From sequence record NC_010583.1: a DNA stretch of 64,000 nt, one strand, 5' to 3'. This document shows, piece after piece, positions 4,564 through 47,385 of this stretch (the stretch's first letter is position 1; each line of letters begins with the position of its first letter). The stretch comes from Escherichia phage Eps7. The notes below the pieces were generated by a model that ran no database searches, was not told the DNA's origin, and worked only from the letters and a program-made list of their open reading frames with translations. The translations under genes were made by a program, and so were the position numbers.

Positions 4564-4872
4564 GGGAACATCTTAAAACCTATCGGCTAGCGTGTCAAGC
4601 GTTTTTTAAACTTTTTTCGATTTGATGTGAGTTATATAAATCAATCATTATATTACGCCACACCATTTCCAGACCTTGCTGCTTACCTTTCTTGTATTGC
4701 TTGAATCTGTATTTTACAGATCGTTGCGCTACTGTCAACAAATTTTTTTGTTCTGCTATCTAATGCGCTAGCAGGTTTCGCACTAATCACTAAAGCGTTT
4801 TTTGATTTGATCATTATCGTCGATTCCTTATAATGTATAAGTTTACCGCCGATAGGCTTTAAGATGTTCCCT
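4564..4872. repeat. 24-bp inverted repeat pair (GGGAACATCTTAAAACCTATCGGC / reverse complement) separated by ~260 bp
   Basis: 4564-4587 and 4849-4872 are reverse complements with one mismatch; lies in 1.5-kb non-coding region. Confidence 0.7.
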
Positions 4873-9003: not shown

Positions 9004-9200
9004 CTAAAGATGAAGCACTAGAAAAAATGAAACAAGGTTTCAAAGTTAGTAATCAATATTTTACTAGCGATGAATTTTTGTACATGAAAGAAAACGGCGT
9101 GATCATGTCAGAAGATGGTTACAATTTTAATGATTGGTTTTTCAATATTCGCAAGGGTGAGGAATGGAAGCTAGACGGTTGGAGCGTCTACCGTGAATAG
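9000..9200 (+). CDS. hypothetical protein
   Basis: 66-aa ORF, ATGA overlap with upstream gene. Confidence 0.5.
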   Translation: MTKDEALEKMKQGFKVSNQYFTSDEFLYMKENGVIMSEDGYNFNDWFFNIRKGEEWKLDGWSVYRE

Positions 9201-9326
9201 CTGGTGGCGTAAAACGCAAAGTCACAAATCTAATAATACCGCTGGGAAACATTCCCAGCGTTTACGATTTGGTAATGGCTTTACAATGATATTGATAATC
9301 ATTCTCATTCTAGGAGCGATGGCGTT

Positions 9327-9422
9327 ATGAGACTATATATTTTCGTGGGTAATATTAAGCCTGCTAATGATCCCAACGGTGGCGACAATATCCGCCGCTA
9401 TTTTCAACAATACATCTATTAA
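9327..9422 (+). CDS. small hypothetical peptide (31 aa)
   Basis: ORF below track threshold preceded by CTAGGAGCG RBS. Confidence 0.3.
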   Translation: MRLYIFVGNIKPANDPNGGDNIRRYFQQYIY

Positions 9423-9437
9423 TAACGGGGCGTTACT

Positions 9438-9632
9438 ATGAGTGATAAAATTGTTATTAGTAAAACTAGTGTTACCGTGGATACATTCTATGTAGAAGAT
9501 ACAAAAGAAAACCGCGCAATTTGTGAGAATCAAGAGTATGACAAACTTATATATGATGAGTATGGTTACTACACTAATCTAGTAGATTCCTACGGTGAAA
9601 GCGTAGAGTTCTCCCATCAAATACCGGACTAA
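9438..9632 (+). CDS. hypothetical protein
   Basis: 64-aa ORF; last gene of plus-strand cassette. Confidence 0.5.
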   Translation: MSDKIVISKTSVTVDTFYVEDTKENRAICENQEYDKLIYDEYGYYTNLVDSYGESVEFSHQIPD

Positions 9633-9638
9633 TAATAA

Positions 9639-9668
9639 CGGGGCGCAACTATCGGCCCCGCCTTTTCT
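9639..9668 (+). terminator. GC-rich hairpin followed by T-rich tract
   Basis: CGGGGC-loop-GCCCCG then CCTTTTCT after last cassette gene. Confidence 0.5.
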
Positions 9669-9780
9669 GGCCTTCCTCAAATTTCCCATTATTAAAATAC
9701 CTCCTCCAAAAATAAACGCGTTAGGATGCGTTACAGAGCGTTTTAGAGCTATATTAGAGTTATTCACCACGCAGGAATAC

Positions 9781-9914
9781 TGTATAAATATACAGTAGAA
9801 TAACCTGTTGATAAGTCTGTTGATAACGCCTCAAAATCACTAGGATTTTGTCAAGTCAAATCGTGCTGTTAATAAACCTGTGGATAACTTAAATAACAGT
9901 GTTTCTCACTTCGC
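9781..9914. repeat. right arm of ~135-bp imperfect inverted repeat (DnaA-box-like sites, palindrome)
   Basis: CTGTATAAATATACAG 9781-9796; TGTTGATAA x2 (9807-9827) and TGTGGATAA 9879-9887; reverse complement matches 5521-5655. Confidence 0.7.
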
Positions 9915-10100
9915 TTTCTAAATGCGACTCATTCTCATTATGCGACTCATTCGTACTCAACTCTGTAAAGGATAACCATTCTCATTCCGCTTTCTAAGTG
10001 TGAATCATTATCATTCGCATTCAACTTCTCAAATGCGAATCAATCTCATTATCATTCGCATTTCGGCAGGCAGGGCATTTTCATTTTGCCCTGCGCTTTT

Positions 10101-10698
10101 GTGCAAATCCGACATTTGCCCCCACGGATTACGTGCCAGCGTGCATGTGCGAATCCGACAATTTTGTGTGTGAAACCGATGGGAAATATTTTTTATATGT
10201 GCGAATCCGACAATGAATTTTCCTAAAAACTCCAGCAATCAGCAACTGCGATGCAATCCAGCTGGATTCACTAGAGTATGTGCAAATCCGACATGAGTTT
10301 ATTTGTGCAAAACCGACAAGATTTTTGTGACTTCGATGAGAGGGTGTGTGATTGTGTGGGTTTGGGGAGAAGTGCGAATCCGACGAGGTTTTTGGGAGGA
10401 ACTATGGAGGGTGCAGCTGTAGTGGTGCTTCAGCACCGGTTTGCTGCGTTTTTGGGGATAATGTGGGATGTTTTGGCTAGAATTGAGATTAGTGGAGATA
10501 AAGCGAAATTTTTATTAGCAAAATGGGGCAAAATCGCTTGACAAGTGAAAATTCCTGTGGCTCCAAAAACTCAGGCAATCAAGGGCCTTCGGCCCGAAAT
10601 AATGCTGCTATTTTCAGGAGAGTATGTGTTCATGAAAACTTAGGCAATTGTGCAAATCCGACCATAAATTTCTAGAAACACAATGTGCAAATCCGACA
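10101..10698. repeat. dispersed array of about 8 copies of 14-bp motif GTGC(A/G)AATCCGACA
   Basis: copies at 10101, 10147, 10199, 10280, 10305 (variant), 10372 (variant), 10650, 10685; irregular spacing; non-coding. Confidence 0.75.
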
Positions 10699-10741
10699 GT
10701 AATTTCCAGAAATGTGTTTTCAAAAAAATGTTGTCTAGAAA

Positions 10742-10814
10742 TAACCGCCCTCCCTATAACCGCCCTGTATAGGAAACCGCCCTAGGATATCTATAGTAGG
10801 TGAGAAACTGCCCT
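10742..10814. repeat. short direct repeats AACCGCCCT x3 plus AACTGCCCT
   Basis: 10742-10750, 10758-10766, 10775-10783, 10806-10814. Confidence 0.6.
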
Positions 10815-11232
10815 AGAATGCGTGAGAAACAGATTTAAAGTTTGATGTAAACTCTAGAGTTAGTGCTCAACTATTCCTAGAAACTTAGGAGTCTAGAGGA
10901 AAGTGTTGTGCCATCCTAGCAGATGAGCGGCAACAGGTGTATCATCTTGAACATAAATATTGCCTTTAAATATTTATAAGGTAAATAAAAGTAAATATAC
11001 CCCCATTTCATGAGAGTTAGCCCCTCTAGGCGCGTGCGATTTGATACATCCTCCTGAGTCTCGGGGAGGAAGAACAATTGACGAGAACCTGCAAGCAGAA
11101 CCGTCATCAAGTGTTTTCCTACGAGGAATGATGTAAATCTACGGCCTAGAGGTAAAAACAAGTTGATGTTTTTAATCTATGAGATTATTATAACATGCAG
11201 CTCAAATAATGTCAAGAAGATTTTATTAACAT

Positions 11233-12267
11233 TTATACATCGTGATTGACTTTGAGTATGACTCCCTTCGATGCCATGAAAAGGAATGTTGCTAAGTAAG
11301 ATGACTCGGAGTTTAGCGCAGAATAATCTACACTTCCTCTAGGTCTAGTTTCTTGTTTAGTGTCAAGAATTGTTGATATATCAAACTTAACAAAGTTAGC
11401 AATCTTTCTAGCTTGCTCGGGATCACGTAAGAGTTCATAATGCGCTGCATTTAGAATATTAGTGGATTCAATTACATCATCATTAATTATACTTAGATGA
11501 ACCTGCGCAAGTATCGAGACAATCCCTAGCTTTAACTCAGATACAGAAGAATAAGGTGGTTCTACTTTCTTTGTAAGTCTAGGAAGATGATCATATTTAC
11601 ATTGTTTTTGTGGAATCATCAGAATGTTGGGATAACATTCTAAACATGACTTTGCATTTCCTTCTTTAAAATGTGGGAGTTCTTTATCAGCAAAGACATG
11701 GAATGAATCTGCTGAGAATCCTTTAATAGTAGGGTCAACAGTTTGAATCAGACGACGTAGACTAATGTATGAAGGAGCTAATGTAACTTCTTCTGCATCT
11801 TTATTATACTTGGGCTGTCCACTAGCATTAATATATGCAGGATAAAACTCTGCACAAAATGCTATTGCATGTGCCTCTAACTCATTAAGCTGAGAAACAC
11901 ATTTTCCATTACAAGCTCTAGCTAATTTAATAATCTCTGCTAAATTCTTTTTTTATACTCATATATAATCATCCGGTCTGGGTTTAAGTTCTGTTATTGA
12001 TTTTGCTGAGGGCTCTAACTTAATCCATGTAAATCCTAGCTGTTCTGATAGGTGAGAGATATTTCTAGGTGTTATCTTTATATCTGGAGGTAATTTAAAT
12101 ACTAGGTCTTTAAGTAACTTCATATCATCTGAACCAATGAAGAGAATATACTGCATTTCATCTCTTAGTTCATATTCAGATTCACTCAGGGAGCTAACAC
12201 CAGCAGTAAATTTATTGAGTTGGGCCACTTTGCAGCGACCCACGGTAAACTGAGTAATTATATCCAT
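11233..12267 (-). CDS. hypothetical protein(s); coding continuous 11233-11952 but no canonical start, upstream ORF 11959..12267 ends 6 nt before an A7 run
   Basis: ORFs 11233..11619 and 11959..12267 with an open stop-free frame between them; possible indel at homopolymer 11946-11952. Confidence 0.4.
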
Positions 12268-12878
12268 TAACGACCTCTAGCCTTATCTGCATCAATAGCT
12301 TCGAATACTTTCGTTAACATTTCTTCAAGCTCTCCATCTTTGCTAGGGTTGCTCAGATGAATAGTATATGAGTTCCTAGAAACTCCGGAGTCTTCCTGTG
12401 CTCCGCGATCTTTAGCAAAACTCATCATTGTAACACCAGCTTTGTTCCACTCATCTACGTTAGACGCTTCCCCAAACTTATATGACTGTGTACTATTTAC
12501 TATACCACCACACTTAATATTGTGCATATCCGACATTAATCTTTTATCAGAATTATTTAACATCGTGATTGGTCCAGACTGCCACGGATCTCGAATAGTC
12601 ACTGGAGTACTAGGGCGGTTCACCTCAGTCTTCACAAGTTTGTATCCAGCATCGATTAGTGAATTAATCAGATTATCAGCCGGGATGCGAGCCGTGCCAA
12701 AGATCTTACGAGCATTCATAAGTTTAGCCTGAAACTCTTTGCAAGCCTGAAGATCAATGTGCAAAAACGACAGCTGCATAGATTTAAACTGTACTGTAGC
12801 AGTCAGATCTTTAAAGCTGTAATCCCATGTATCGAGTTCATGATCTGCAACTACTTTAATGGTTTGTTGTGTAAACAT
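12267..12878 (-). CDS. hypothetical protein
   Basis: 203-aa ORF. Confidence 0.5.
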   Translation of the reverse strand: MFTQQTIKVVADHELDTWDYSFKDLTATVQFKSMQLSFLHIDLQACKEFQAKLMNARKIFGTARIPADNLINSLIDAGYKLVKTEVNRPSTPVTIRDPWQSGPITMLNNSDKRLMSDMHNIKCGGIVNSTQSYKFGEASNVDEWNKAGVTMMSFAKDRGAQEDSGVSRNSYTIHLSNPSKDGELEEMLTKVFEAIDADKARGR

Positions 12879-15082: not shown

Positions 15083-15513
15083 TGGATTTTTTCTTTTGTG
15101 TCATGATAAAGATTTCCTGTATCAGTTGGAAGGAATGCCGATTGTGCCTTCGGCGGATGTTGTTTTGCAATCCAGTTGAGGATCAGTACACGGCTAGGAA
15201 CGATATCAGTATTATACCAGAAGTCATGAACCCAATGTCGTGCATCTTCGAACTTACCGAATTTATATGCTTTCTTAAACAATTCAAAACCAAAACAGTC
15301 AGGTGCAAAATCTACATCACGATAAGGAATTACCTTAGAACCTGTGAGATCTTGGATAGCTGCATTAATTTCTGTGTGGGAGTATTTCGACTCATGGAAT
15401 GTATTGAAGAAGCGATAATTGAAGCGTCCATTTGTTTCGACAAACAACTGAATGAATAAATCATTAAATTGTCCATCAAACCAGTAATTCTGTAATCTTT
15501 GCAGTGCTGTCAT
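15076..15513 (-). CDS. hypothetical protein
   Basis: 145-aa ORF. Confidence 0.5.
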   Translation of the reverse strand: MTALQRLQNYWFDGQFNDLFIQLFVETNGRFNYRFFNTFHESKYSHTEINAAIQDLTGSKVIPYRDVDFAPDCFGFELFKKAYKFGKFEDARHWVHDFWYNTDIVPSRVLILNWIAKQHPPKAQSAFLPTDTGNLYHDTKEKIQC

Positions 15514-22110: not shown

Positions 22111-22761
22111 ATAGATCTACCTAATGATCTTTGCTGCGGTGAGCAAAGCTTTGTTAAGTACTCCTTAAATTGTTCCGAGTCAGCTGTATCTACGGGTTTA
22201 TCCTTCCAGGCAATACCTATGTATCCAGCATAGATATTATTTAGGTTGAAATACGGACAAGTATAGACGTAATTAAAAGTAACGTTCTTAAACGCGGGTA
22301 TATTTGACCCCATATATTTATTTACTTTTACACTTAAATCCGAAGCGTAGTTAAAGCCTTCCAGGTGACGTCTATAAAGTTCAGACGTCTTGTTTACTGC
22401 TTTATCGGCCAAGTCAGCCCTATCCAATTGCGCATTGCTTTCCCATGCAATAATGTTCGAATAATCGTTTATAGCATCGGGTTTATACTTGACTACAAAA
22501 ACAGCATCCGCACCCGTCTGAGAGAAAAGAACCATGCTCTTTTCTCGTGCTACATTAGGAAAGTTATCTATCCTTTGGGTTTGAACATCCTGTAAAACCG
22601 CAGACGTGAGAAGTCTTTAAAAATGACATCACCTCGCTAGTGTTACTTACAAACAAGAAAATAATGACAGCAACTAAGATAGTTAGCAGACGTTTTAGTA
22701 GCGAAGCTGGATCTTTCGCTTCTTGGAGCAGTACCGTTAATAGTTGTAGAAACTTTTCCAC
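22107..22761 (-). CDS. putative holin, frame interrupted
   Basis: ORFs 22564..22761 (N-terminal TM) and 22107..22535 with frame continuity across 22565-22616; coupled to endolysin start. Confidence 0.5.
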
Positions 22762-22785
22762 TTGTAACCTCCTCTAACCATTACC

Positions 22786-22814
22786 ATTATACTAATTCTA
22801 GAGGAAAATTACAA
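22786..22814 (-). promoter_or_regulatory. sigma70-type promoter (-35 TTGTAA, -10 TATAAT) upstream of holin-endolysin
   Basis: ATTATA 22786-22791, TTACAA 22809-22814, 17-bp spacer. Confidence 0.5.
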
Positions 22815-22872
22815 CGTGTTTTTAAAGATCACTTCTGGAGCATAATTTTTTGTCGTTGTCAAGAAGAATTTT

Positions 22873-22908
22873 AGGCAAAAGAAAAGCCAGAGTCGTTAAA
22901 CTCTGGCT
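22873..22908 (-). terminator. rho-independent terminator
   Basis: AGCCAGAG-loop-CTCTGGCT followed on minus strand by T-rich run. Confidence 0.6.
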
Positions 22909-22917
22909 TAAAACTAC

Positions 22918-23517
22918 TTACACTTCTCCATGTTCTTCTGGATGCGGAGCTTGAGCTTTACTATATTGCTCTTTGCGATAATTCGCCAAAATTTCAATAC
23001 GCTTATTGATTTCTTTACTGTTGAGGTAGATATTCTTATTCTCTTTTACCATGTCCTCGATCTCGTCAATAGAGAAGAACGGGAAGTAAACATCGAGCAT
23101 CATATCTTCTACAAACTGGTTGTAAGATTCATAGGCTTTCTTGATTTCTTGACCTTTCTCACAGAATCCGCCAGAGAACGTATGTCCCATAAGCGTAGCA
23201 TGTGGATGTACAACCCAACCGTGGCAAGACAGGAAGATTGTGCAGTAAGCAGAAGCACTAGGACCGAGCAGGTGTCCAATAACCGTTCCACGACAGTTAG
23301 CGATTAGGTTAGATAGTTGTGCAGCAGTATCAACGTAACCACCAGGCCCATTAATCATCAGATTAATTTCATCATCTTCACCAGCCTGCATCAGTATCAT
23401 GGATAGGTCACGATACTCATCCGGTGAGCCTAATTCTTCATCAAAGAAAAAGGTATATTCGTTAGATTGGCGAACAGTGTGAAACAGGTTAGTCTTTTCT
23501 TCTTTCTTATTAGTCAT
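22918..23517 (-). CDS. ClpP-like serine peptidase family protein
   Basis: 199-aa ORF with INGPGG...GHLLGPSASAY pattern resembling ClpP. Confidence 0.55.
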   Translation of the reverse strand: MTNKKEEKTNLFHTVRQSNEYTFFFDEELGSPDEYRDLSMILMQAGEDDEINLMINGPGGYVDTAAQLSNLIANCRGTVIGHLLGPSASAYCTIFLSCHGWVVHPHATLMGHTFSGGFCEKGQEIKKAYESYNQFVEDMMLDVYFPFFSIDEIEDMVKENKNIYLNSKEINKRIEILANYRKEQYSKAQAPHPEEHGEV

Positions 23518-23529
23518 AGTGATCCTTAA

Positions 23530-24282
23530 TTATCCAACTAGTGGTTCTAGCTCTAAGTCACAGAAGTGGTACACATCGGTACGAAGTGCATCAAGTCCGT
23601 TGAAGGTATTCTCAAATTTATGAGAAATGTATTTTTCAGGAATACCGCTTTCAGACGGATGATCTGTCTCGATGCGATACTTATTAGTAATACCAGATTC
23701 AACCTTAATAAGCATGGAATCCATATCTAGAGTATTGGTTTCCATGATTAGCTCTCCCTCATTGGGGAAACGCACATCGGTAACGATTGCGACGTCTGGG
23801 TCGTCTTTATCGATGGATTGCTCCAGAATTATGAGCCAAATGCGTTCATGCACCAGCTGCCTTCCTAACTCAGTACCTACAAGCTGTAGCATTTTTCTTG
23901 GGGAGATAAATACGCTATACAGCGCATCATCAGCTTGCCCAATTAACTGCTGAGGATCAAGGTATTTTCCTTCAAAAATCGGCCAAACGTACGAGAAGTC
24001 CTCAAACTTATCGATACCATACTTAAACCATACGTCTCTAGCTCGCTCCAATTGAGATTGTGTGACTGTAAACCATTGGTCAATCTCTTTTCCCCTGCGC
24101 TCTCCCAGAAACTCTGGAGTTACCCCGAGGATTACGGATGCAAGTTCGTAAACGGGTTTAGCAAAACTGTAACGACGGGATAAACACGTTGGGAACGTGT
24201 CATTACACCAGTCAATCATTAATTCTGCAACGGTATCTTTTCCCGCACCAGCCTCACCATGTAAACCGACTAATACTGACAT
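23530..24282 (-). CDS. deoxynucleoside monophosphate kinase-like P-loop protein
   Basis: 250-aa ORF with N-terminal GEAGAGKDT Walker A, similar in layout to phage dNMP kinases. Confidence 0.6.
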   Translation of the reverse strand: MSVLVGLHGEAGAGKDTVAELMIDWCNDTFPTCLSRRYSFAKPVYELASVILGVTPEFLGERRGKEIDQWFTVTQSQLERARDVWFKYGIDKFEDFSYVWPIFEGKYLDPQQLIGQADDALYSVFISPRKMLQLVGTELGRQLVHERIWLIILEQSIDKDDPDVAIVTDVRFPNEGELIMETNTLDMDSMLIKVESGITNKYRIETDHPSESGIPEKYISHKFENTFNGLDALRTDVYHFCDLELEPLVG

Positions 24283-25015: not shown

Positions 25016-25670
25016 GTGCTGCTAACCTGTCTTTATCTGATACGGTAATCATATCAGGCTCACCAGTTCCTAGTACACCGAAGATATACTGTTCGAGAAC
25101 TTGGTGTAAACGGTATAAGTTACTTTCAATTTCCTGCCACGGAATACCTGACTGATGGAAACGAATGTTTGTCTGAATTACGAAGTTACGAACATCATCG
25201 TTATCGTTCTTCTTAATACCTTTCACATATGCAATTGGTACGCGCAGTTCAGATAAGATACGTTCTGCTTTAGGTTTTGCTTCAACCAACATATCTCGCA
25301 TGGTTTCACGAACATCACCACGATTCTTGTCTAGTAAGTAAGAACGGGCATGTAATCCCATTTCTTCCATTTTATCAAATACAGCATCGATGTTGAACGT
25401 TTTGAAACTGAATGCCGGATGCCAGCAGGACAGCTCATGTAACCAGTAAACTTCACCTGCAATAAACAGCGGATTTACTGAGTATTCGAAATCACCACGG
25501 AAGGATAAGGAACCTTCACGAAACACCTGACGATTATGAACAATATTCTTTTCTACATCGTCGGTTACTTTTACTAGCAGCTCTTCAGTTTTACGCTCCC
25601 AGACACGATCTGGATCAAATAAACTATTCTGCAAATCGTATACATCATTGAACTTTGAAATGATTCTCAT
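24972..25670 (-). CDS. hypothetical protein
   Basis: 232-aa ORF 32 nt downstream of promoter. Confidence 0.55.
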   Translation of the reverse strand: MRIISKFNDVYDLQNSLFDPDRVWERKTEELLVKVTDDVEKNIVHNRQVFREGSLSFRGDFEYSVNPLFIAGEVYWLHELSCWHPAFSFKTFNIDAVFDKMEEMGLHARSYLLDKNRGDVRETMRDMLVEAKPKAERILSELRVPIAYVKGIKKNDNDDVRNFVIQTNIRFHQSGIPWQEIESNLYRLHQVLEQYIFGVLGTGEPDMITVSDKDRLAAHGFDTKTSFRNMAR

Positions 25671-25701
25671 AAATTATCCTTTTGCCTCAATCTATAAACA
25701 T

Positions 25702-25730
25702 ATTATATAATACTTGTGGCGTCTGAGCAA
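25702..25730 (-). promoter_or_regulatory. sigma70-type early promoter
   Basis: ATTATA 25702-25707, GAGCAA 25725-25730, 17-bp spacer. Confidence 0.55.
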
Positions 25731-25816
25731 CTGAAATTTTATTACAAAAAATAGCCCAGCCTGCAATTTTGCGACTGGGCTTTGTCATTATTATTCTTGC
25801 TAGGAGGTGATTATCA

Positions 25817-26206
25817 TCACTCTTGTTTACTTAATTCTCTAGCACGACGTAGCGATCCAGCGGTTCTCCATAGTTTAATGTCGTCAATAACTTCTTTGTA
25901 AGGAGCAATAGTAAGACCTAGCGGTCCTGCTACCAACAGTCCAAAGAAACCAATTACACGCATGTATAGCAAGCATTCTTTGGGAGTCATTGACTGGACA
26001 GCCTGCCTTTCCTCATCACTGTCGAACTCGTATTCTTGATCGTCTAAACGTAGGTACTTAATAAACCATTCAGCAGAATATTCATCCAGATGACTAATAA
26101 CTGCAATAGCATAGCCTAAACCAATAATAAACCATGCTGCTACAATGAATAAAATAAAGCTCATGATATCTCCAGTTAAAGTTGAGGTCCGCGACCAACT
26201 CACCAC
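25817..26206 (-). CDS. membrane protein
   Basis: 129-aa ORF with TM segments. Confidence 0.5.
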   Translation of the reverse strand: MVSWSRTSTLTGDIMSFILFIVAAWFIIGLGYAIAVISHLDEYSAEWFIKYLRLDDQEYEFDSDEERQAVQSMTPKECLLYMRVIGFFGLLVAGPLGLTIAPYKEVIDDIKLWRTAGSLRRARELSKQE

Positions 26207-26280
26207 TTACCGCACTAAGGGGCACGACTCCCTTATCCGTAACAGTTGCAGGTGACGCAACTCGGTCCTACGCGAGTTCT

Positions 26281-26565
26281 TTACTTGCTCTGCATTTCAG
26301 CACGGAATTTTTTCATCTTACGAGTTTTACGGAAGAAGAAATAAGTAGCTACTGGCCCGAACAAGGTGTCCATAATAAGCATACCTGACATGATGAATTT
26401 GAACATCTTTTCATCGTCAAATTCTGCTAATTCTGGTGGACGATATTTGTTTATAACATAAAGAATAACATCTTTATTTTTAGAGATATACAGATCATCA
26501 ATCAGACTGTAAATCGCGACAACTGCACCAATAACAAACCACAAAGCAAATGGAGAGATAATCAT
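26281..26565 (-). CDS. small membrane protein
   Basis: 94-aa ORF. Confidence 0.45.
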   Translation of the reverse strand: MIISPFALWFVIGAVVAIYSLIDDLYISKNKDVILYVINKYRPPELAEFDDEKMFKFIMSGMLIMDTLFGPVATYFFFRKTRKMKKFRAEMQSK

Positions 26566-26855
26566 TTAAGATCCTTTTCATCAATTAGAATAGTAACAAA
26601 CAATGGTACACAACCTGGGCACAAATCTTTACCAAACTTTTCCATTACATCCCAAAGTGGTAAGGTAATCATATCATTCTTAACTCTAGGATCTGTATAC
26701 TCAGCTATTCGTTTATTTGCAAAATCAGTAGCTAAATCTGAGTTATGCTCGTAGCTATAATCAGTCCAGAATTTAGTATGATCATTTCTAAGATACTCTA
26801 GTACAGCATCAGTTGCTGGAATCTGAACTAGACTGTTGAGATTTAGCTCTTTCAC
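26562..26855 (-). CDS. hypothetical protein
   Basis: 97-aa ORF. Confidence 0.5.
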   Translation of the reverse strand: MKELNLNSLVQIPATDAVLEYLRNDHTKFWTDYSYEHNSDLATDFANKRIAEYTDPRVKNDMITLPLWDVMEKFGKDLCPGCVPLFVTILIDEKDLK

Positions 26856-46612: not shown

Positions 46613-47385
46613 AATTATTTTCCTTTTGTTGTTCTCTCAAATTTATGAATATATTATACAGAATTTGGAGCTGAAAGCAAATCAAATTTTGATTTTTTTC
46701 GATCATGATGGCTACACAATAACTTTCAACTAAAGCATCGAATGCGGGATCATGTTTCACTGGATAGATTCCATAACGAATGGTATCCATCTTTTCCATT
46801 TTAGCTTTTGCCCAGCTAGCACCTTCGGCTTCTAGATCTTTATAGCTATAACCAGCTTGCATCCACTGATTACGGAAAGATCGAACGTTACCTAAGTTCC
46901 AGAATTTCCACGGAACTATTTCTTCATGGGTTCCGGCATGGAACGTATTTGCAGAGTAGATTGTCATATCAAACTCTGGGCCATTGCCGTAATACAGAGC
47001 ATTATCTCCTAGAGACAATTCCATAATGTTCTGAGCCATAGAGAAGGCAGCATAATTAGAGCCTACGTCATTAGTGCAGTGATGCTTACCATCACGGAAG
47101 GCAATCAGTTTAGGATTACGACCATTTAGAGCCTCCATAATATGGAGCGCAGATGGACTGTTTTTTAGCTTGATCCATCCAGAATGCAATAGTAGAGGCA
47201 GTTACCTTAGCACCCGCATTAAGCTGATCTTGAACGTCTAGAGTAACGAATACCAGATCAGGATCTTTATCAATTCCGTGCATCGCTACAAAAGCGAAAG
47301 AAGGCATTGCAATATGAGTAGTACCGCAATTTCCTGGAGTACCTAGAGATTCAATGTCCAGCATACCAAAGGGCTTGAATTTCAT
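46599..47385 (-). CDS. putative exonuclease-like protein, frame interrupted
   Basis: ORFs 47116..47385 (MLDIESLG acidic motif) and 46599..47189 overlap; 3' end of downstream piece runs into promoter. Confidence 0.4.
46653..46680 (-). promoter_or_regulatory. sigma70-type early promoter
   Basis: ATTATA 46653-46658, AAGCAA 46675-46680, 16-bp spacer. Confidence 0.55.

What the first reader, a model, noticed from the sequence alone, without database searches (positions are those of the whole stretch)
11233..12267. Long protein-like frame with no canonical start codon after an A7 run
Between 11620 and 11952 the minus strand is stop-free and protein-like, continuous with ORF 11233..11619, but has no ATG, GTG or TTG. 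The upstream ORF (11959..12267) ends at a TGA only 6 nt before an A7 homopolymer. This is either one gene with an indel or stop artefact, or translation coupled through a non-canonical start.
Basis: seen in the sequence. Interest (0 to 1): 0.35.

Follow-up and report, generated by a model that had tools for sequence, protein, structure and literature searches.

The report
Extra A splits a phage gene
The startless protein-like frame is a conserved T5-like phage gene of unknown function, pushed out of frame at codon 5 by one extra A in a run of six; this is an ordinary homopolymer frameshift, not an unusual way of starting translation.

Summary
On the minus strand, 11952..11620 is 111 codons with no stop and no ATG/GTG/TTG, continuous with ORF 11619..11233.

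The cause is simple. An ATG at 11962..11960 overlaps the upstream gene's TGA (ATGA). In BD13, STWB21, SP_Thor, Seafire and two metagenome contigs it opens one 241-242-codon gene (PHROG 8993, unknown function). Those genomes have A6 where the window has A7 (11954..11948). Here the ATG frame stops after 11 codons. Removing one A gives a protein 100% identical to STWB21's.

Other lineages begin the gene ATGAGTATTAAAAAG or ATGAGTATTAGTGAG, so the run is not a conserved recoding signal. The upstream 102-codon ORF is a separate, intact gene.

Real mutation or sequencing error remains open.
- **For an error:** the window's assembly is error-prone. About nine genes intact in three relatives, including A1 and NrdA, are frame-split only here.
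- **For a real change:** A7 is shared with PSa2, a distinct and clean genome, inside a 2,350-nt identical block.

I lean towards a genuine recent insertion in the EPS7/PSa2 lineage that knocks the gene out (about 0.6), against an artefact (about 0.27). Recoding or a non-canonical start is unlikely. Low interest.

The parts
11959..12267 (-). Upstream gene, 102 codons, intact and separate (PHROG 13456, unknown function); ends at TGA 11961..11959
   Evidence: matches profile positions 1-102 of 110, E 2.8e-50. Annotated as its own CDS in PSa2, BD13, STWB21, SP_Thor and Seafire.
11960..11962 (-). True start codon (ATG) of the disrupted gene, overlapping the upstream stop as ATGA
   Evidence: The relatives' CDSs start at the homologous ATG. 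The N-terminus MSIKKNL / MSISENL is read from this ATG in IMG/VR and metagenome contigs.
11948..11954 (-). A7 homopolymer carrying one extra A relative to the A6 of relatives; this is the frameshift site, at codons 4-5
   Evidence: In one search, only PSa2 matches the 80-nt junction at >=99% identity, and the other 59 listed records span 1 nt less than the query.
11927..11962 (-). What the true start encodes in this sequence: MSIKKEFSRDY followed by TAA (11 codons)
   Evidence: Translation.
11233..11952 (-). Body of the gene (239 codons plus stop), now +1 out of frame with its ATG; member of PHROG 8993
   Evidence: Removing one A gives 242 aa matching PHROG 8993 over positions 1-241 of 242, E 4.5e-112, and 100% identical to the STWB21 protein. 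The family is 29 representatives of about 235-265 aa.
11233..11619 (-). Mechanical ORF from the first in-frame ATG (Met112 of the full protein); this is what PSa2's annotation calls as a 128-aa CDS
   Evidence: PSa2_00018; this exact product is on record only for PSa2.

Best explanation
The stretch 11962..11233 (minus strand) is one conserved early-region gene of T5-like phages (Demerecviridae, genus Epseptimavirus; PHROG 8993; 241-242 codons; function unknown). It starts at the ATG that overlaps the upstream gene's TGA (ATGA), an arrangement that allows translational coupling.

In this genome an A6 tract at codons 4-5 has gained one A. Translation from the true start therefore ends after 11 codons (MSIKKEFSRDY), and the remaining 239 codons sit in the +1 frame with no start of their own.

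Shown: the gene model, the true start, the site and the size of the indel.

Inferred: the extra A is most likely a genuine, recent slipped-strand replication error inherited by the EPS7/PSa2 lineage. It would make the gene a null or at best very leaky allele, tolerated because the gene is dispensable in culture. The body is still undecayed because the event is recent.
For: - **A6 in relatives:** BD13, STWB21, SP_Thor and Seafire have A6 and annotate a single 726-729-nt CDS that starts 4 nt before the upstream stop. Two metagenome contigs also have A6 and an intact gene.
- **A7 is rare:** all 59 other records listed for the 80-nt junction query span 1 nt less than the query; only PSa2 matches exactly.
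- **Repair works:** deleting one A gives a full-length PHROG 8993 match, 100% identical to STWB21's protein.
- **Start position confirmed:** all family representatives are about 235-265 aa and align from profile position 1-6.
- **Evidence that it is real:**
  - PSa2 is a different genome, with 1,609 differences over about 61 kb.
  - PSa2 shows no frame splits against BD13 and only one private homopolymer change in 305 comparable runs.
  - PSa2 still carries the same A7, inside a 2,350-nt block identical to the window.
- **PSa2 is not a copy of the window:** window-only indels at 15087, 22084 and 47161 sit in otherwise identical stretches, and PSa2 lacks them.
- **The gene can be lost elsewhere:** GSW6 has it split at a different A-run, and another record keeps only the C-terminal third.
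Against: - The window's assembly is clearly error-prone. About nine genes intact in both PSa2 and BD13 are frame-split only in the window: dNMPase, A1, holin, DHFR, NrdA, a metallopeptidase, a PhoH-like protein and others.
- The window has 8 private homopolymer length changes, 7 of them +1 in A/T runs of 5-7, which is exactly the type of change seen here.
- All four runs of 7 or more in the window are +1 relative to outgroups.
- All three window+PSa2 shared homopolymer changes are +1 as well. That would also fit PSa2 having inherited reference bases from the window's source during a reference-guided assembly.
- No raw reads could be inspected.
- Because the window and PSa2 are identical across the gene, selection on the shifted frame cannot be measured.
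Confidence: 0.62

Rival explanations
1. Sequencing or assembly artefact. The phage DNA really has A6 and an intact 242-codon gene. The extra A is a homopolymer miscall in the window's source record, and it appears in PSa2 either by coincidence or because PSa2 was assembled or polished against that record.
For: The window has many private single-base indels that break conserved and essential genes. A1 is split into three frames and NrdA into four, and holin, DHFR and dNMPase are also broken. A1 is required for second-step DNA transfer in T5 (abstract of bioRxiv 10.1101/866236), so a viable phage cannot carry that break. There are 8 private homopolymer changes, 7 of them +1. The three changes shared with PSa2 are all +1 in long A/T runs.
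Against: PSa2 is otherwise clean: no BD13 ORF is frame-split in it, and it has one private homopolymer change in 305 runs. It does not share the window's other errors, even in near-identical context or at equally long runs (4743 and 46693 are T7 in the window and T6 in PSa2). By my rough estimate from the counts, only about 0.1 coincident independent errors would be expected against the 3 observed. The artefact reading therefore needs non-independent assemblies, for which there is no direct evidence.
Confidence: 0.27
2. The A7 is real, and the gene is still expressed at a useful level by recoding. Either RNA polymerase slippage on the run makes A6 (or A9) transcripts, or ribosomes make a +1 shift on A-AAA-AAA-G. 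The result would be a leaky or tunable allele rather than a null.
For: The site is a pure A7 run at codons 4-5. A transcript that loses one A would encode exactly the wild-type protein. The downstream frame is fully intact. Rescue of frameshifted genes by slippage at A/T runs is documented (PMC1088944).
Against: - The run is not conserved. Relatives have A6, A5 or no run, and a single ORF, so nothing suggests selection for a recoding site.
- The needed change is +1 or -2. The -1 frame hits TAG after two codons (read directly from the sequence).
- Selection against slippage-prone runs becomes evident at about 9 nt in many bacteria (PMC1088944).
- With E. coli RNA polymerase, no single-nucleotide-deletion rescue was seen on poly(A) runs up to A8, and indel levels at T6/T7 tracts were under 1%, lower still for A7 (PMC6260861). 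That T5-like phages transcribe with host RNA polymerase is established knowledge, not tested here.
- The 0-frame codon after the run is GAA, which I take to be a common, quickly decoded codon (my own knowledge, not tested here), so no pause would favour a +1 shift.
- Downstream RNA structure is unremarkable (z = -1.88).
Confidence: 0.06
3. The 128-codon ORF from ATG 11619, as annotated in PSa2, is translated on its own and supplies a functional C-terminal fragment.
For: It is the longest canonical ORF in the region, and PSa2's annotators called it.
Against: This ATG is internal Met112 of a conserved protein of about 240 aa. No family member starts there. The sequence just upstream, TATCCCAACATTCTG, has no Shine-Dalgarno motif (read). 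In the confident structure model, the residues around it lie in the non-helical stretch between helix 100-106 and helix 137-156. The call is a by-product of automatic gene finding on a frameshifted gene.
Confidence: 0.03
4. The long frame is translated from a non-canonical start, for example ATT 11934..11932 or ATT 11931..11929, by coupling to or re-initiation after the upstream ORF or the 11-codon mini-ORF, whose TAA overlaps those ATT codons.
For: Near-cognate ATT, ATA and CTG codons exist in the frame. The mini-ORF stop (11929..11927) overlaps ATT-ATT-AAA, so a terminating ribosome would be positioned nearby (read directly from the sequence).
Against: All relatives use the ATG and conserve the residues before those ATT codons. 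There is no Shine-Dalgarno sequence at a workable distance. AUU initiation is strongly discriminated against in E. coli (established knowledge, not tested here). The arrangement exists only because of the 1-nt insertion.
Confidence: 0.02

Closest known systems
Slipped-strand (homopolymer) frameshift mutations that create split genes or pseudogenes in phage and bacterial genomes
   Same: A single-base gain in a mononucleotide run inside a coding sequence. An intact ortholog with the shorter run exists in close relatives. Gene callers then report a truncated downstream ORF. The same gene is split at another A-run in phage GSW6.
   Different: Nothing substantive. The only notable points are that the hit is at codon 5, so the product is essentially absent, and that two distinct genomes share it.
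Homopolymer-length miscalls in error-prone genome assemblies
   Same: A +1 change in an A/T run of 6. The same window shows many such private +1 changes and frame-broken essential genes.
   Different: This particular change is reproduced in PSa2, a separate and otherwise clean genome record, which ordinary random miscalls are not.
Rescue of frameshifted genes by transcriptional slippage at long A/T runs (cases surveyed in Baranov et al. 2005, PMC1088944)
   Same: An out-of-frame gene body follows a poly(A) run, and a transcript with a different run length would restore the reading frame.
   Different: The run is 7 nt, not the 8-9 or more of the documented cases. The run and the two-frame layout are not conserved in homologs. 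Rescue here needs loss of one A, which E. coli RNA polymerase did not detectably do on poly(A) runs (PMC6260861).
dnaX-type A-AAA-AAG -1 programmed ribosomal frameshifting
   Same: The sequence contains the slippery A-AAA-AAA-G heptamer motif.
   Different: The -1 frame ends at TAG after two codons; restoring this gene needs +1 or -2. No upstream Shine-Dalgarno-like stimulator or strong downstream hairpin is present. The motif is not conserved.

Membership tests
PHROG 8993 (T5-like phage early protein of about 240 aa, unknown function) | Full-length sequence match to the family profile | tested here: met
   The repaired 242-aa translation matches profile positions 1-241 of 242, E 4.5e-112, and is 100% identical to the STWB21 protein.
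PHROG 8993 (T5-like phage early protein of about 240 aa, unknown function) | Conserved position: directly downstream of the PHROG 5271 and PHROG 13456 genes, just inside the unique region next to the left terminal repeat | tested here: met
   The gene order is the same in PSa2, BD13, STWB21, SP_Thor and Seafire. In T5 the terminal repeat ends at 10219, and the homologous neighbourhood follows it.
PHROG 8993 (T5-like phage early protein of about 240 aa, unknown function) | Uninterrupted ORF from the conserved ATG | tested here: not met
   From ATG 11962 the frame stops after 11 codons because of the extra A. The window therefore holds a disrupted copy.
Programmed frameshift or transcriptional slippage site | The slippery run and the two-frame ORF layout are conserved among homologs | tested here: not met
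   Relatives have A6, A5 (ATTAAAAAG) or no run (ATTAGTGAG), and a single ORF.
Programmed frameshift or transcriptional slippage site | Run long enough for efficient slippage by the host polymerase (about 8-9 nt or more) | tested here: not met
   The run is 7 nt. Thresholds come from PMC1088944 and PMC6260861.
Programmed frameshift or transcriptional slippage site | Stimulatory element (upstream Shine-Dalgarno-like sequence or stable downstream structure) | tested here: inconclusive
   The downstream 80 nt fold at -18.5 kcal/mol, z = -1.88, and 7 of 200 shuffles fold as well. No Shine-Dalgarno-like motif is visible upstream of the run.
Programmed frameshift or transcriptional slippage site | Trans-frame product detected | not testable with these tools
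   This needs proteomics or cDNA sequencing from infected cells.
Non-canonical (near-cognate) translation start | A near-cognate codon with a ribosome-binding site, used by homologs | tested here: not met
   Only ATT, ATA and CTG are present in the frame. All relatives examined start at the ATG and conserve residues 1-8.
Sequencing artefact (homopolymer miscall) | The same assembly shows other homopolymer indels that break conserved genes | tested here: met
   About nine genes are frame-split only in the window. The window has 8 private homopolymer changes against 1-2 in each of three relatives.
Sequencing artefact (homopolymer miscall) | The indel is absent from independent sequences of the same lineage | tested here: not met
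   PSa2 (OL770310) carries the same A7. Whether the PSa2 assembly is truly independent could not be verified.

The most novel reading that the evidence does not exclude
The A7 is real, and the tract acts as a heritable, reversible A6/A7 switch, or as a leaky slippage-dependent valve, for an early gene of a T5-like phage. Sub-populations or a small fraction of transcripts would make the wild-type protein. The protein itself has a confidently predicted fold with no match among solved structures.
Probability: 0.05. Interest if true: 0.4.

Novelty: already known. Interest (0 to 1): 0.1.

Why it matters
Mainly as a matter of annotation hygiene. The 128-aa CDS annotated at this locus in PSa2 is the tail of a frameshifted gene of about 242 aa and should be labelled as disrupted. 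The window's source sequence carries many single-base indels that break essential genes, so its gene models should not be trusted without comparison to relatives. If the A7 is real, it shows that this conserved T5-like early gene of unknown function is dispensable for propagation, which is a small but usable piece of functional information.

Tried and rejected
- **One fused gene with the upstream ORF.** Rejected: two stops (TGA, TAA) separate them, and relatives have two genes in different frames.
- **-1 frameshift on A-AAA-AAA-G.** Rejected: the -1 frame reads AGA ATT TAG.
- **Function by sequence.** Pfam, PADLOC and PDB sequence searches found nothing. PHROG 8993 is unannotated. T5.018 shows only weak N-terminal similarity (28% over 96 aa, E 0.003 pairwise), and one paper mentions it by name only.
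- **More A7 alleles.** Pattern scans allowing A6-A8 found nothing in IMG/VR or in GTDB genomes, and two A6 contigs in metagenomes. Exact-product look-ups found only PSa2.
- **Identity of the window.** EPS7 accessions NC_010583 and CP000917 are not in the phage collection, and the EPS7 genome paper is not held. That the window is EPS7 remains an inference.
- **Origin of PSa2.** A literature search for phage PSa2 gave no relevant paper.
- **More homologs.** A second homolog search seeded with P0032 added only one sequence.

Full report
**What is in the sequence.** On the minus strand, ORF 12267..11959 (102 codons) ends at TGA 11961..11959. Four bases later (GTAT) comes an A7 run at 11954..11948. 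The frame that starts after TAA 11955..11953 is open for 239 codons down to the stop at 11235..11233. Its first 111 codons (11952..11620) hold no ATG, GTG or TTG, only ATT, ATA and CTG. This is far from chance. Shuffles of the 333 nt are stop-free at a rate of 1.15e-4 and were never also start-free. Only 4 of 4,096 111-codon windows inside the window's long open frames lack a canonical start.

The upstream TGA is part of ATGA. An ATG at 11962..11960 reads ATG AGT ATA AAA AAA GAA TTT AGC AGA GAT TAT TAA, that is MSIKKEFSRDY followed by a stop. This frame is one base out of register with the long open frame.

**What it is.** The window is a T5-like phage (Demerecviridae, Epseptimavirus).
- The 1.4-kb locus is 100% identical to Escherichia phage PSa2, 99.4% to Salmonella phage BD13, 98.5% to STWB21 and about 90% to many others.
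- BD13, STWB21, SP_Thor and Seafire each annotate two genes here. One is the 102-codon gene. The other is a 726-729-nt gene whose ATG overlaps the first gene's stop.
- At the junction they read ATGAGTAT-AAAAAA-GAATTT, with A6 where the window and PSa2 have A7.
- Deleting one A from the window gives a 242-aa protein. It matches PHROG 8993 end to end (1-241 of 242, E 4.5e-112) and is 100% identical to the STWB21 protein.
- In an 80-nt junction search, only PSa2 matched at 99% or better. Each of the other 59 listed records spans one base less than the query.
- Two metagenome contigs also have A6 and an intact gene.
- A profile search of 1.84 billion representatives found only 29 family members. 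Nearly all are 235-265 aa and align from profile position 1-6, which confirms where the protein starts.

**Not a recoding signal.** Other lineages of the family start ATGAGTATTAAAAAG (an A5 run) or ATGAGTATTAGTGAG (no run). They have different upstream neighbours but the same N-terminus, MSI(K/S)(K/E)NL. So the ATG is the conserved start and the homopolymer is incidental.
- Restoring the frame here needs +1 or -2. The -1 frame reads AGA ATT TAG.
- Selection against slippage-prone A/T runs becomes evident at about 9 nt in many bacteria (PMC1088944).
- E. coli RNA polymerase gave no detectable single-base-deletion rescue on poly(A) up to A8. Indel levels at T6/T7 tracts were under 1%, and lower for A7 (PMC6260861).
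- The RNA downstream of the run folds unremarkably (z = -1.88).
- The ATG at 11619, which PSa2's annotation uses, is internal Met112 of the family protein. It has no ribosome-binding site upstream.

**Real mutation or artefact?** This is the only genuinely open point, and the evidence points both ways.

*The window is not PSa2.* Over 64 kb the two differ at 1,609 aligned positions. PSa2 is classified as species Epseptimavirus EPS7, and the EPS7 records are absent from the searchable collection. The window may be EPS7 itself, but that is an inference only.

*The window's assembly is error-prone.* ORFs that are intact in both PSa2 and BD13 are frame-split only in the window:

| Gene | Approximate break site(s) |
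|---|---|
| dNMPase | 125 |
| A1 (three frames) | 2954, 2688 |
| 149-aa ORF | 15090 |
| holin | 22610 |
| 117-aa ORF | 38496 |
| metallopeptidase | 47163 |
| DHFR | 51709 |
| NrdA (four frames) | 55848, 55804, 54578 |
| PhoH-like protein | 56790 |

A1 is required for second-step DNA transfer (abstract of bioRxiv 10.1101/866236). Its break cannot be real in a viable phage. No BD13 ORF is frame-split in PSa2.

*Homopolymer census.* I compared 305 runs of 4 nt or more across four genomes:

| Genome(s) | Run-length changes |
|---|---|
| Window only | 8 (7 of them +1 in A/T runs) |
| PSa2 only | 1 |
| BD13 only | 2 |
| STWB21 only | 1 |
| Window and PSa2 together | 3, all +1: 10722, 11948 (this site), 25746 |

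All four runs of 7 nt or more in the window are one longer than in the outgroups. On that basis alone the A7 looks like one more error.

*But the clean genome PSa2 has it too.* The A7 lies inside a 2,350-nt block (10360..12709) with no difference between the two genomes. PSa2 is not simply a copy of the window's sequence. Window-only indels at 15087, 22084 and 47161 lie in otherwise identical stretches, and PSa2 lacks them. PSa2 also has T6 where the window has T7 at 4743 and 46693. By my rough estimate from the counts, only about 0.1 independent coincident errors would be expected, against three observed. The shared changes therefore reflect either common descent or a non-independent assembly. 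Common descent is the simpler reading. I put a real inherited insertion at about 0.6 and an artefact at about 0.27.

**Consequence if real.** The gene is knocked out at codon 5 in this lineage, apart from trace restoration by slippage. The body is undecayed because the event is recent: there are no differences from PSa2, and the repaired protein is identical to STWB21's. Dispensability is plausible, because the same gene is split at another A-run in GSW6 (TTAAAAAAGG) and another record keeps only its C-terminal third.

**Function.** Unknown.
- Pfam, PADLOC and PDB sequence searches found nothing.
- A 33-sequence alignment gave a confident AlphaFold model (mean pLDDT 91, pTM 0.64).
- T5.018, at the equivalent position in T5, shows only weak N-terminal similarity.

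**Verdict.** This is an ordinary homopolymer frameshift in a conserved hypothetical phage gene. Of the two interpretations offered, 'indel' is essentially right and 'non-canonical start' is not supported. Interest is low.

Noticed in passing
window ~125, ~2688 and ~2954, ~15090, ~22610, ~38496, ~47163, ~51709, 54578/55804/55848, ~56790: Single-base indels private to the window split genes that are intact in both PSa2 and BD13: dNMPase, A1 (three frames), a 149-aa ORF, holin, a 117-aa ORF, a metallopeptidase, DHFR, NrdA (four frames) and a PhoH-like protein. A broken A1 is incompatible with a viable T5-like phage, so the source sequence is error-prone.
   Followed up: yes
window 4743-4749, 10722-10728, 11948-11954, 46693-46699: These are the only four homopolymers of 7 nt or more in the 64 kb. 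All four are one base longer than in BD13 and STWB21. Two are private to the window and two are shared with PSa2.
   Followed up: yes
window 11187-11215 (minus strand): A perfect sigma-70 consensus promoter (TTGACA, 17 nt, TG-TATAAT; 12 of 12 matches) lies directly after the stop of the disrupted gene and points towards lower coordinates. A second near-consensus promoter (11 of 12) is at 13646-13618.
   Followed up: no
window 9900-10710: This non-coding region beside the terminal-repeat boundary is packed with direct repeats. There are eight copies of a motif of about 23 nt with core TGTGC(A/G)AATCCGACA at 10099-10705, and four copies of a 37-nt unit at 9903-10050. It is at about the same distance from the genome's left end as the T5 injection-stop-signal region annotated at 9140-10149. 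The window and PSa2 diverge strongly here.
   Followed up: partly
L020 (Salmonella phage GSW6, OQ362005) 1526-2252; protein P0033: The same gene is split in GSW6 by a 1-nt gain at a different A-run (CTTATTAAAAAAGG against CTTACAAAGAAAG in BD13). In another record of about 106 kb, the first two thirds are replaced by an unrelated N-terminus that I take to be nuclease-like.
   Followed up: partly
[not shown]
   Followed up: partly
L013/L014 (PSa2, OL770310): Some PSa2 annotation looks unreliable: 'putative terminase' on a 180-aa DUF723 protein, and a Sir2-like gene split into SIRT5_1 and SIRT5_2 where BD13 has one 852-nt CDS.
   Followed up: no
window 1-64000 against PSa2: Identity between the window and PSa2 is mosaic. 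Blocks of 0.9-2.4 kb with no differences (for example 10360-12709, 22611-24173 and 25194-26603) alternate with stretches about 4-10% divergent, which suggests recent recombination among Epseptimavirus genomes.
   Followed up: partly
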